From Octopus vulgaris (lineage: Eukaryota), in contig OX597817.1 of the NCBI GenBank assembly GCA_951406725.2, positions 122,450,001 through 122,514,000 on the forward strand: a stretch of 64,000 bases of DNA. The letters run 5' to 3'. The notes beneath the pieces are model-generated. The model had not been told where the DNA came from. It searched no databases and saw only the letters and a list, made by a program, of their open reading frames with translations. This document shows, piece by piece, positions 765-57,192 of this stretch. The position numbers were made by a program, and so were the translations under genes. The first letter of the stretch is position 1. Each line of letters starts with the position of its first letter.

Positions 765-1033
765 AATGTCGAACAATGAGAATGAATGCACAACACGGCA
801 TTGGCAGATAAAGATATTTATTTGCATATTAAGGCTGCCATTGGTTTCATGTTATGAAAATATCTCAACAATTTTTTATTCAATCACATGTTCATCTCCA
901 TTTTGGATTAAAACACTTGTTTTACCCCAAAATGGAGAAGACGAACACCAATTTCTCCAGATGATTGGATTAAAAAAATCATTAAGATATTTGTATATAT
1001 GACATCAATGGTAGCCTTAATACATAAATAATG
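765..1033. mobile_element. Inverted-repeat element, PLE-terminus-like
   Basis: Arms 818-850 and 999-1031 match at about 27/33. Homologous to 6410-6560. Carries the GAAACCAATGG(C/T)A hammerhead stem III motif. Flanked by TA/CA repeats. Confidence 0.5.
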
Positions 1034-1222
1034 TATATGTATATATATATATATATATATACATACATACATACATACATACATACATACATACATACAT
1101 ATATATATATATATATATATATATATATATATATATATATATATATATATATATATATATATATATATATATATATATATATATATATACATATATACAT
1201 ATATATATATATATATATATAT
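1034..1222. repeat. (TA)n/(TACA)n microsatellite
   Basis: Direct reading. Similar arrays at 2462-2810, 3044-3232, 16170-16385, 39860-40110, 61960-62230 and many others. Confidence 0.98.
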
Positions 1223-1340
1223 TTGTTCAGAGAGACAAAACTAATCTACAAACACTGGTTAGAGAAAATTATAGAGCCTCCCAAAAAACTGTTGTTGGGA
1301 AGTGGATGAAAGTGGTAAATACACCCCACATAAATGAAGT

Positions 1341-1524
1341 GGCAAGCTGGAGGGCAGAAGCACCAGACCCCAGTCGTCTGTTTTGGCGTGGTTTCTACAG
1401 CTGGATGCCCTTCTAAACACCAAACACTCTACAAGGTGTACTGAATGCTTTTGTACATGGCACTTTCCAACCCATGCCAGCGTGGAAAACAAATGTTTGA
1501 GAATGATGATGATGATGATGATGA
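1341..1524 (+). mobile_element. RTE-type 3' tail with 5'-inverted segment
   Basis: 1341-1463 is antisense and 1466-1524 is sense relative to the tail seen at 5030-5220. Ends in (GAT)n. Confidence 0.6.
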
Positions 1525-1800
1525 TATACATCTATCTGTTTGTGACTATGCTTATACTTGTACTGCTTAACTAGTGCCATGCTTATGTTGCGTATTTCTT
1601 ATGTCACATGACATGACAATTCAGCAAACAGGAATTGATAAAATAGATACAAGTTCAAAATAAGTACTGAAGCTGAAAGTTTTTGACTAGATATACATGG
1701 AAGTGGTACCCCACGTTCTGATAATTGAAATACATGAAACCAGTATATGACTAAAAAGAAGTTGTTATTGCCATTGGTATTGGTGGTGAGTTAGTAAAAT

Positions 1801-1908
1801 CATCATCATCATCATCATCATCGTTTAACGTCCGTTCTCCATGCTAGCATGGGTTGGACAGTTCGACCGGGGATCTGGGAAGTCAGAAGGCTGCACCAGG
1901 CTCCGGTC
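1801..1908 (-). mobile_element. RTE-type LINE 3' tail (5'-truncated)
   Basis: (CAT)n-CGTTTAACGTCCGTTCTCCATGCTAGCATGGGTTGGAC, the reverse complement of the tail at 5160-5220. Other copies near 11820-12130, 21360-21490, 43200-43440, 61915-61962, 62345-62400. Confidence 0.75.
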
Positions 1909-54765: not shown

Positions 54766-55587
54766 AGTAAATTATCTTTGTTTAACATGCCCTCTGATAA
54801 TGAGACTGTTGTAGATTTATATAATTGCTTGATCGGTTGCTAGAAATAACAGCCAAATCTCTATTCATACACATCCGATCATCTCAAAAATAAAGCAAGC
54901 ATGACCAAATAAAATATAAAAATCATCAAAATAAATGGGGTGGTCATGGCTCGATTGCTTTGATGATCAGCATTCTCCATGAGAACTGATGTAGCACCAA
55001 ACAAGAGCACAACAACATTGATTGATGAATTATATTGTCAGCAAGCACAATGATTATAGTGAGTATAGATTTATTCAGACGATGCTGACAAAATTTACCC
55101 AGAACATGAATACGAAAAGCATTAAATCTTTAAATAAATATCATAAATTCAAATTTTTATAAATTTAATTCTGATTTTTTTTTTTTTTAATTACATTGAA
55201 TATTTCAAATTTATTCATAAAGAAGAATTATGTTAAATTATAATTTTTACCCTCGATATTATTAAATTATTTTAATCAAAATATGAGGAAAATAATTGAT
55301 TATCGTACTCTTCTGATGGAGATGCACAGTAAGTCAAGCCAATGCAATGTTGACTTACCAACTGAAATCAATGATGCACATTGGATAATGATCGGAACTA
55401 AAACTGTGTACTTTGTAAATACATTAAACTTCTAATACTTCAGACCATGTAGCTGTAAATAGATACAACAGAGACTTAGTTCATTGTTGTAATATGGAGA
55501 TCAGGGAGCTACTGTATAACAGGGGCTCCCGTTCTATGATTGTAGCATAAATTAGGCTGCAGTATAATTCTCAAAAGGCCTTAAAGT

Positions 55588-56042
55588 CAGCGTGGCTATG
55601 TGGTAAGAAGCTTGCTTCCCAACCACTGTGTGGTTCATTGGGCAAGTGTCTTCTACTAAAGCCTCAGCCCAACAAAAACCTTGTGAGTGGATTTGCTAGA
55701 AGGAAACTGAAAGAAGCTCATCATATATGTCTGTGTGTTTTTGTATCTTTGTGTCTGTGATAGTAGACAGAAACTGAAAGAAGCCCATCACATGTGTGTG
55801 TGTGTGGTGCATGCATGTGTGTGTGTGTGCGTGTGTGTGTTTCTCCCCCACCATCACCTCTTGACAGCCAGAGTTGGTCTGTTTAAGTCCCCCTAACTTA
55901 GTGGTTCAGCAAAAGGGACTGATAGAATAAGTACTAGGGTTGAAAAGTAAGTCCTTGGGTAGATTTGTTCAAGGCAGTGCTCCAGCATGGCTGCAACTAG
56001 TAAAGGAATATTAGTAAAGGAACTGAGTGACTGAAACTAATA
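55588..56042 (+). mobile_element. SINE family B with internal duplication
   Basis: GAAACTGAAAGAAGC occurs twice. Confidence 0.75.
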
Positions 56043-56510
56043 AAGGATTAAAATATCTGAAATATCTGATAAAAAACTAATTTTTAAAATTCATGTTTAT
56101 GTTATACATAAGCAGGAGGGCCACATTTACTGAAAGCAATGACTGAAAAATATTTCCTCAAAAAAAAAAATGCAGTCATTGGTTAAGTGGGCTTCCTTAG
56201 CTTATTAGAATAAAGCGGCATTAAAGATTTTATTAATCTCTCTCTCCTTCTCCCTCTCTCTGTGCCTTTTCTATGTTTTGTAATATCTGGTAGATAAACA
56301 GTAAACTGAAACTGGAGAAAATATCTTGCAGTATTTGCTCCAACTCCCTGTACCATGAGCTCACATCCTGCCAAGGAACTGTATCGTCTGTAATGATTAT
56401 TGAGATTTACCCTAGAACTGCATCTGTGGCAAGAATTGGGAAGACTTATGTACATGGGCAACAGCTAGTCTTCCACAAAATCTTTGCCCAAGCCTATGAC
56501 TTGCAGAGGT

Positions 56511-56915
56511 GCAGACATAGCTATGTGGTAAGAAGCTTGCTTCCAAACCAGATTGTTCCAGGTTCAGTTCCACTGTGTAGCACCCTGGGCAAGTATCTCC
56601 TAAGGCGAATCAAAGCATTGTAAGTGTATTTGGTAGACGGAAATTGAAAGAAGCCCATCGTGTATGTGTGTGTGTATATATATATATGTTTATGTGTGTG
56701 TGTCTTTGTGTCTGTGTTTGTCTCCCCATCATTGCTTGACAACCGGTGTTGGTGTGCTTATGTCCCTGTAACTTAATGGTTCACCAAAGGAATTAATATA
56801 ATAAGTACTAGGCTTAAAAATAAGTCCTGGGGTCAAATTATTCGACAAAAATGCTCCAAGTCAGTGCTCCAGCATGGTTGCAATCAAATGACTGAAACAA
56901 GTAAAAGAATAAAAC
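56511..56915 (+). mobile_element. SINE family B
   Basis: Collinear with 14269-14717. Confidence 0.85.
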
Positions 56916-56985
56916 AATATATATATATATATATATGCATGTGTGTGTGTGTATATATATATATGTACACATGTAGATATATATA

Positions 56986-57192
56986 TGGTTAATCCAAACA
57001 AGAAGGCACAAAAAACACAACAATGCGAGGCGTGGAACAAATATAGTATTATTGGACGCTCAGGAAAGAAGGAGGGTTTAACGTTTTGAGCAAAGCTCTT
57101 CGTCGGAAGCATAGGAGAAGGAAAGATCCAGAGAAGGGAAGACAGAGGAAAAAAAAAATCGCCAACGGTACACACGCGGTCACATTTTGAAT
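56986..57192 (-). mobile_element. PLE-like 3' terminus with minimal hammerhead-like motif
   Basis: Minus strand CCGACGA-A-GAGC-TTT-GCTC-AAAA-CG-TT (57080-57106) in a pyrimidine-rich context, between TA repeats. Confidence 0.55.

What the first reader, a model, noticed from the sequence alone, without database searches (positions are those of the whole stretch)
765..57192. Recurrent hammerhead + inverted-repeat elements with co-varying palindromic stem III
Seen: about 10 short, mostly sequence-unrelated elements (765, 4453, 5389, 6410, 6590, 15373, 22125, 40651, 49463, 51455, 56986) share the order CUGANGA-like box, hairpin, GAAA, self-complementary stem III with a 0-2 nt loop, then UH. Stem III sequences differ but stay paired: CCA-A-TGG, CTGATCGG, CTC-A-GAG, CTT-T-AAG, CTC-G-GAG, TTAG-G-CTAA, TT-AG-AA, CG. 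Most lie next to TA/CA repeats and most carry an inverted copy of their own terminus. Known: Penelope-like elements and metazoan retrozymes carry type I hammerheads with short palindromic stem III that can act as dimers, and PLE insertions often have inverted termini. Inference: this is a diverse population of small ribozyme-bearing PLE derivatives that favour microsatellites, at roughly one per 6 kb. They may be poorly annotated in cephalopods.
Basis: partly seen in the sequence, partly recalled or inferred. Interest (0 to 1): 0.75.

Follow-up and report, generated by a model that had tools for sequence, protein, structure and literature searches.

The report
Penelope retroelement tails carrying hammerhead ribozymes
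The eleven short repeats are worn copies of ten genome-wide repeat families that carry a predicted self-cutting RNA motif; half of the families run directly into genes of Penelope-like jumping elements and the rest likely use the same copying machinery, an arrangement already described in animals including octopus, although one very abundant family has an unusual fixed change in the motif's core whose effect on cutting is untested.

Summary
No window copy passes an intact-hammerhead descriptor. The 11 sites belong to 10 dispersed families, and the majority sequences of 9 form type I hammerheads whose stem I pairs within, not between, families (p about 5e-6). The 51455 site was read in the wrong register (stem III is CATG). 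Intact motifs occur at 19-41 per Mb against 1.2-1.5 in shuffles.

Families A, E, F and G run upstream into Hydra-clade Penelope-like (PLE) ORFs, and a D subfamily into a Neptune-type ORF: these are 5'-truncated PLE tails. B and H are ORF-less head-to-tail units of about 520 and 450 nt (retrozyme type).

The kind is published. Cervera 2014 describes it, and Craig 2021 lists an Octopus Hydra element with the same CCA-A-TGG stem III, (TA)n targeting and inverted 5' copies. The scan found the same kind before on other DNA. One extra: the D lineage (roughly 45,000 copies) keeps U at core position 6 (24 of 25) across subfamilies; cleavage is untested.

The parts
765..1031 (.). Family A stump with inverted arms; decayed hammerhead on the minus strand at 836-878 (core and U16.1 lost)
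4453..4796 (.). Family B (ORF-less unit of about 520 nt); hammerhead on the minus strand 4629-4685, cut at its 5' end by the inversion junction; direct 3' piece 4685-4796
5389..5785 (.). Family C fold-back; motifs at 5654-5683 (+) and 5489-5518 (-); U3-A8 core, A at position 12, stem III CCGG (decayed)
6231..6362 (+).
6400..6563 (+). Family A 3' end of a Hydra-clade PLE; hammerhead 6430-6490, U3-A8 core, stem III CCA-A-TGG; no inverted arm
6592..6763 (+). Family D 3' end (Neptune-type lineage); minimal hammerhead 6660-6687, core CUGUAGA (A6U), stem III CG decayed to CA; no inverted arm
15373..15683 (.). Family E fold-back (Hydra-type link); motifs 15621-15654 (+) and 15462-15495 (-); core CCGANGA (U4C), stem III CTC-A-GAG
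22125..22856 (.). Family F inverted arms 22131-22247 and 22739-22856; motif 22787-22829 (+), decayed arm 22159-22201 (-); stem III CTT-T-AAG
40651..40938 (.). Family G fold-back (Hydra-type link); motifs 40858-40908 (+, G8 changed to A) and 40761-40811 (-); stem III CTC-G-GAG
49463..49860 (.). Family H (ORF-less unit of about 450 nt); hammerhead 49612-49656 (-), 6-bp stem I in the family, stem III TTAG-G-CTAA; inverted 3' piece from 49706 (right end approximate)
51451..51932 (+). Family I, old; direct partial repeat with period about 345 nt; probable hammerhead 51738-51768 with stem III CATG (not TT-AG-AA)
56986..57192 (-). Family J, about 190 nt, related to D; minimal hammerhead 57080-57106, core CCGACGA (U4C), G12 changed to A in this copy; no inverted arm

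Best explanation
These are decayed copies of ten repeat families, five of which run into Penelope-like retrotransposon (PLE) coding sequence at their longest copies, and all were likely inserted by PLE enzymes that start copying just 3' of a predicted hammerhead ribozyme and usually stop early. Inferred steps: the GIY-YIG endonuclease cuts at (TA)n or similar repeats; reverse transcription starts about 40-280 nt downstream of the hammerhead; it mostly aborts after 100-400 nt, so nearly every stump keeps the ribozyme; some insertions add an inverted copy of the same end. A, E, F, G are tails of Hydra-clade PLEs; D, and probably J, are tails of Neptune-type PLEs; B, H and probably I are ORF-less head-to-tail units of about 520, 450 and 345 nt (retrozyme type), probably copied by the same proteins from a tandem or circular RNA. 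Stem III cannot close as a hairpin but pairs with a second copy in the computed folds, so in the source RNAs the ribozymes would work as dimers. The window copies carry core or stem damage and are probably inert.
For: Multi-copy families. Stem I pairs only within families. Compensatory changes in H: 3 pairs and 10 cells changed on both sides, 89.9% paired, in 16 hand-picked rows (relatedness inflates this). Intact motifs 19 and 41 per Mb against 1.2 and 1.5 in shuffles. Hydra-profile endonuclease hits on the same strand upstream of the motif: A in 2 of 19 loci (L144, L150), F 1 of 18 (L085), G 1 of 22 (L037), E in 2 of 4 loci fetched for their long 5' extension (L394, L395). A related, non-window family has the motif behind its ORF in 15 of 30 loci and matches Hydra-1_Obim motif by motif by eye. 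L283 holds a broken near-full Neptune-type ORF, a 3' UTR of about 0.9 kb, the D-type motif and (TA)n. Direct partial tandems: B 5 of 16 (period 509-525), H 6 of 23 (435-460), with no Hydra-profile hit in 16 and 25 loci. Clustered 3' ends next to microsatellites, with two end positions in B and G. Stem III duplexes -1.7 to -12.2 kcal/mol, no monomer hairpin. The published Hydra table has stems III CCA-A-TGG, CTC-A-GAG, CTT-T-AAG, CTC-G-GAG.
Against: No cleavage was tested, and 0 window copies pass the intact descriptor. ORF links rest on 1-2 loci per family, in a genome where unrelated PLE pieces often lie nearby (several opposite-strand or downstream hits; 39,277 and 19,110 first-look candidates). 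C (0 of 18), J (0 of 19, plus 2 extended loci) and I (0 of 17) reached no ORF. The D link is to a sister subfamily, not the window's own. No enzyme partner is identified for B and H. Pfam gave no family for the Hydra-type ORF and only sub-threshold RVT_1 and GIY-YIG hits for the Neptune-type ones; clades were assigned by motif comparison, without a tree. No PLE ORF lies in the window or within 10 kb of it.
Confidence: 0.85

Rival explanations
1. All families are dedicated small non-autonomous elements (retrozymes or SINE-like units) that replicate as short or circular RNAs, not stumps of full PLEs.
For: B and H have family-wide head-to-tail junctions and no ORF hit. J top hits share a 5' end. 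Most copies of all families are under 400 nt.
Against: A, E, F, G and a D subfamily run into ORFs. D 5' ends are scattered. J-like copies extend further upstream with different ends, and the common J end lies in the loop of a short hairpin, a likely stalling point (inference).
Confidence: 0.12
2. The motifs are PLE-borne but no longer need to cleave; they persist as a protein-binding or passive structure, so abundant families tolerate core changes.
For: Core changes in abundant families: A6U in D, U4C in J and E, A at position 12 in most C copies. In vitro, hammerhead mutants did not impair insertion by an Anolis PLE (PMC11167929, passages). Changes at positions 4 and 6 lower activity (PMC3088659).
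Against: In D the other core positions are 98.5% conserved against 75-83% for flanks while position 7 varies freely (25 copies; selection by BLAST on this region biases this upward). U3-A8 in A and C keeps the 3-8 pair. This rival concerns function only and is compatible with the PLE origin.
Confidence: 0.3
3. The motifs are chance matches in AT-rich repeats, and the inverted arms are MITE-type terminal repeats of DNA transposons.
For: No window copy is intact; 5 of 9 relaxed hits look like chance; the TT-AG-AA reading was spurious.
Against: 16-27-fold excess over shuffles; family-specific stem I pairing; arms are optional and vary in length from copy to copy; PLE ORF links.
Confidence: 0.03

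Closest known systems
Hydra-clade PLEs, including Hydra-1_Obim of Octopus bimaculoides (Craig et al. 2021, PMC8557442; seen: passages, section 11, supplement searches and supplement part 2)
   Same: 3' hammerhead with 3-bp + 1-nt stem III (CCA-A-TGG, CTC-A-GAG, CTT-T-AAG, CTC-G-GAG all in its table), extra base at the foot of stem II, (TA)n preference, inverted 5'-truncated copy, RWK, DKT, CxCx5C, CxxC-E and N-CxH motifs
   Different: Families A, E, F, G have other stem I and II sequences than the listed Hydra-1_Obim motif. A has a U3-A8 core and E a U4C core, neither in that table. The paper found few Hydra families outside cnidarians; here one Hydra-type query gives 39,277 first-look candidates.
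Minimal hammerheads (min-HHR) of metazoan PLE pseudo-LTRs (Cervera and de la Pena 2014, PMC4209133; seen: parts 1-2 of 4)
   Same: Many sequence-unrelated families per genome, mostly solo truncated copies, opposite-strand pairs 100-700 bp apart, palindromic helix III, extra base between positions 9 and 10.1, U3-A8 variant, predicted dimers
   Different: No cephalopod in the parts read; A6U (D) and A at position 12 (C) are not described there.
Metazoan non-LTR retrozymes (Cervera and de la Pena 2020, PMC7229834, passages; Li, Clavereau, Pollet, bioRxiv 10.64898/2026.07.22.740005, parts 1-2 of 5)
   Same: ORF-less head-to-tail units with a type I hammerhead; proposed mobilisation by PLEs
   Different: B and H are longer (about 520 and 450 nt) than the coral, mussel and axolotl units (220-390 nt), though inside the 51-972 bp range of the preprint. 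They were seen only as monomers or partial tandems with inverted arms. Circular RNA is not shown.
Neptune-clade PLEs (as defined in PMC8557442)
   Same: L283: DKG motif, PKIHK, YIDD, CX2-5CxxC-type linker (first Cys changed), CCHH-type endonuclease, minimal 3' hammerhead with CG stem III
   Different: Core CUGUNGA (A6U) across the D lineage; Neptune is paraphyletic in that paper and no tree was built here.

Membership tests
Type I hammerhead ribozyme | Order stem I, core, stem II, GAAA, stem III, UH, stem I with paired stems | tested here: met
   Majority lines of 9 families; covariation in H. Individual window copies are decayed.
Type I hammerhead ribozyme | Canonical core CUGANGA / GAAA / UH | tested here: inconclusive
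   Met in B, F, G, H; known variants in A (U3-A8), E and J (U4C); not met in D (A6U) and most C copies (A at 12); I weak.
Type I hammerhead ribozyme | Self-cleavage at UH | not testable with these tools
   Needs in vitro transcription or raw RNA ends.
PLE minimal/dimeric hammerhead | Palindromic stem III unable to close alone, stable as a duplex | tested here: met
   9 of 9 families: no monomer hairpin, duplex -1.7 to -12.2 kcal/mol.
EN+ Penelope-like element | RT plus C-terminal GIY-YIG ORF upstream of the hammerhead on the same strand | tested here: inconclusive
   Endonuclease end linked for A, E, F, G; RT and endonuclease for a D subfamily; none for B, C, H, I, J.
EN+ Penelope-like element | 5' truncation with partial tandem and/or inverted copies | tested here: met
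   Inverted arms in 0-50% of copies by family, partial tandems in B and H; L163 = inverted copy, endonuclease end, UTR, motif.
EN+ Penelope-like element | Microsatellite insertion bias | tested here: met
   32 of 39 unbiased copies against a 24% control. No other repeat class was used as a control.
Hydra clade | RWK and DKT motifs, CxCx5C linker, CxxC-E and N-CxH, no CCHH | tested here: met
   Read in L180, L188, L144, L150, L163, L395; compared by eye with the supplement proteins. L180 lacks the cysteine linker.
Hydra clade | Placement in the Hydra branch of an RT tree | not tested
   No reference set was on hand as a file.
Neptune clade | DKG motif, CX2-5CxxC linker, CCHH endonuclease | tested here: inconclusive
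   Present in L283 with the first linker Cys changed; one locus; weak Pfam support.
Non-LTR retrozyme | ORF-less tandem unit with one type I hammerhead per unit | tested here: inconclusive
   B and H: fixed head-to-tail junction, no conserved ORF, but no copy with two complete hammerheads in tandem was shown.
Non-LTR retrozyme | Expression as monomeric circular RNA | not testable with these tools
   Only assembled contigs of unrecorded type were offered.

The most novel reading that the evidence does not exclude
The D lineage, one of the most abundant short repeats in this octopus-like genome (about 17 per Mb) and attached to a Neptune-type ORF, uses a naturally working CUGUNGA (A6U) hammerhead kept by selection across subfamilies. 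Together with the U4C (J, E), U3-A8 (A) and A12 (C) families it forms a natural series of canonical, slowed and probably dead cores with very different copy numbers, which would test directly whether PLEs need cleavage, and whether PLE protein rescues weak cores.
Probability: 0.35. Interest if true: 0.55.

Novelty: new member of a known kind. Interest (0 to 1): 0.3.

Why it matters
As a class this is ordinary: hammerhead-bearing PLE tails and retrozyme-type units are described across animals, and once in Octopus. Its uses are practical. Tens of thousands of short octopus repeats can be assigned to Hydra- and Neptune-type PLEs, and some may sit among the many unclassified SINE families of a recent O. 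vulgaris annotation (PMC13282606; not checked against that library). The Hydra clade appears far larger here than its description suggests. The role of PLE hammerheads is still called unclear (PMC8557442, PMC11167929); families that amplified with fixed core changes give ready test cases.

Tried and rejected
Rfam scan of the window: no hammerhead among the best 150 of 455 matches, which were microRNA models on microsatellites and fold-backs; the other 305 were not shown. RF00163 on the genome: 6 matches from 73 scored of 263,217 candidates, too few to count with. The repeat finder was swamped by microsatellites.

TT-AG-AA register at 51790 rejected. A search with the I hammerhead part found only the window copy. 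A Neptune-type ORF beside a G copy (L037) proved a separate family: its 30 loci share their own 3' end, with only scattered C, D, G or J copies nearby. The L045 ORF beside a G copy also belongs to another family. ORF hits on the wrong strand or downstream were not counted. RT-region hits in E loci L073 and L076 and the N-terminal hit in G locus L051 were not counted because the element is not continuous there. Two extended J-like loci ended in microsatellite before any ORF; only 2 of about 10 long candidates could be fetched.

RNA: no RNA holder listed; laying 4 contig sets of guessed type on J shows presence only and is not used. No structure prediction was run.

Literature: searches hammerhead+Penelope+octopus, hammerhead ribozyme+cephalopod, A6U+hammerhead (one twister paper) and CUGUNGA+hammerhead (none) found no description of A6U in PLE hammerheads. 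Lunse et al. 2017 on small PLE hammerhead variants is not held (title seen in a reference list only) and may cover it; supplements of Cervera 2014 and of the bioRxiv preprint were not seen.
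Full report
Setting. The window is G000:C4:122450001-122514000 of a 2.8-Gb genome in 227 contigs. An octopus is inferred from the repeat content (recalled), from the one named protein hit to a species (Argonauta hians, 34%) and from likeness to Hydra-1_Obim; the species was not determined. 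The window is about 33% GC, rich in (TA)n, and shows no long coding frame.

Observation. The quoted stem III strings are there. No window copy passes a type I descriptor with canonical or variant cores. A relaxed scan gives 9 hits against a shuffled mean of 2.65, and only 4 of the 9 are listed sites. I therefore searched the genome with each site. All are dispersed repeats; 765 and 6410 are one family. I aligned the 17-30 best loci per family, which are top hits and so biased toward the window copy. Family majorities (core; stem III): A UUGAAAA, CCA-A-UGG; B CUGAUGA, CUGAUCGG; C UUGAUAA, CCGG; D CUGUAGA, CG; E CCGAAGA, CUC-A-GAG; F CUGAGGA, CUU-U-AAG; G CUGAAGA, CUC-G-GAG; H CUGAAGA, UUAG(G)CUAA; J CCGACGA, CG. 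In H, 16 hand-picked rows of 30 loci show both-side changes at 3 pairs; this is supportive but not independent of descent.

Abundance. In 100 evenly spaced 10-kb stretches (999,900 bases) there are 19 intact canonical or U3-A8 motifs, and 41 when U4C and A6U are allowed; both arms of a fold-back are counted. Twelve block-wise dinucleotide shuffles give means of 1.2 and 1.5. That extrapolates to roughly 50,000-110,000 intact motifs. By homology the nine window families give 40 copies per Mb: D 17, J 11, G 6, E 4, C 1, H 1, and A, B, F 0. A microsatellite follows in 32 of 39 sample copies against a 24% control; inverted arms occur in 2 of 39, and in 0-50% of top hits by family, against 7 of 11 in the window.

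What carries them. The longest A copies run upstream into a broken ORF ending in a Hydra-type endonuclease. L163 reads inverted G copy, endonuclease end, 3' UTR, G motif. A profile of 113 sequences (L180 and 112 of the 120 listed homologues) finds same-strand upstream endonuclease hits for A (2 of 19), F (1 of 18), G (1 of 22) and E (2 of 4 loci fetched for long extensions; none clean among the 22 original loci), and none for B, C, H, I, J. A related non-window family has open frames up to 833 aa among the loci read, 39,277 first-look candidates, and an intact motif behind the ORF in 15 of 30 loci. It agrees by eye with Hydra-1_Obim. For D, sample locus L283 holds a broken near-full Neptune-type ORF, about 0.9 kb of UTR, a CUGUUGA motif and (TA)n. 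J resembles D over the motif (76% over 51 nt), and older J-like copies with a canonical core extend further upstream with different ends; no ORF was reached. In B and H the family's 3' tail recurs directly upstream at a fixed period (B 5 of 16, 509-525 nt; H 6 of 23, 435-460 nt) with no conserved ORF. The window's I element shows the same layout with a period of about 345 nt. C is unresolved.

Mechanism. Shown: motif anatomy, multi-copy status, clustered 3' ends at microsatellites (two end positions in B and G), ORF links, partial tandems and inverted arms. Inferred from PLE biology (PMC8557442; PMC11167929, passages): target cleavage at simple repeats, initiation just 3' of the ribozyme, early truncation, and an occasional inverted second copy. 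Predicted: dimer-dependent cleavage, because stem III forms no hairpin alone but a duplex with a second copy (PMC4209133). Untested: any cleavage, circular RNA, current activity. The window copies have lost core bases or stem strands and are probably inert.

Core variants. In 25 D-like copies collected outside the D-seeded loci, position 6 is U in 24, position 7 takes all four bases, and the other core positions are 98.5% conserved against 75-83% for flanks (collection by BLAST on this region biases toward conservation). A looser pattern finds the D/J type 22 times in the 1-Mb sample against 0-1 in 5 shuffles. Perreault 2011 (PMC3088659; passages and section 8) reports natural U3-A8, U4C and A6C cores, the last two slow; I found no A6U, with the caveat that Lunse 2017 could not be read. 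In C, position 12 is A in 15 of 18 copies and the complementary CpG-decay product is rare, unlike in stem III, so the source of most copies probably lacked G12 (inference).

Comparison. Cervera 2014 (parts 1-2 of 4) already describes many unrelated min-HHR families per genome, solo truncated copies, opposite-strand pairs, palindromic helix III, the extra base and U3-A8. Retrozymes: PMC7229834 (passages) and the 2026 preprint (parts 1-2 of 5; no mollusc in its sample). The giant squid genome paper counts 235 Hammerhead_1 matches (PMC6962438, passage). The O. vulgaris annotation (PMC13282606, part 1 of 3 and a term search) lists Penelope-like families without mention of ribozymes. PMC6765202 was seen in passages only.

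Verdict. Real, PLE-derived and of a known kind; interest 0.3. Earlier notes of this scan report the same kind in this and other genomes, including the A6U family; they were used as leads only.

Noticed in passing
window 5992-6149: Further fold-back (82% complementary arms) next to (TA)n with no hammerhead boxes seen; possibly a tail-only PLE insertion.
   Followed up: no
window 6231-6362: Unlisted decayed family D copy, lying directly before the A and D elements at 6400-6763.
   Followed up: yes
L167-L196 (e.g. L180:880-3378 -): Young Hydra-type PLE family, 81-95% protein identity among the best hits, open frames up to 833 aa, an Asn-rich insert in place of the cysteine linker, and a canonical 3' hammerhead with stem III CATG or CATATG.
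   Followed up: partly
L357-L386: Neptune-type family (19,110 first-look candidates) whose 3' end keeps GAAA-CCATGG-T but shows no clear core in the majority line.
   Followed up: partly
L257-L356 (1-Mb sample): At least a dozen further hammerhead families with other palindromic stems III (CATATG, CAGCTG, GTAC, CCTAGG, ATCGAT, CAATTG and others); exact fold-back pairs in L328, L337, L350 look recent.
   Followed up: no
L051 about 1150-1480 +: N-terminus of a Hydra-type ORF fused directly upstream of a truncated G copy, a possible template switch.
   Followed up: no
window 57165-57192; L335, L398, L399: The common 5' end of J falls in the loop of a 6-bp hairpin of the longer parent sequence, a possible reverse-transcription stop.
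   Followed up: partly
window 14267-14697, 19667-20048, 25824-26452, 28459-28696, 42770-43155, 44047-45083 and others: Abundant SINE-like families that also end at TA/TG repeats, so microsatellite contact is not specific to the hammerhead elements.
   Followed up: no
window 53254-53448: 19-bp tandem repeat, about 10 copies.
   Followed up: no
window 42121-42588 (-), 33193-33537 (-), 62921-63349 (+), 32517-32819 and 38662-38980: Fragments that look like RTE/CR1-type LINE ends and Tc1/mariner pieces (labels recalled).
   Followed up: no
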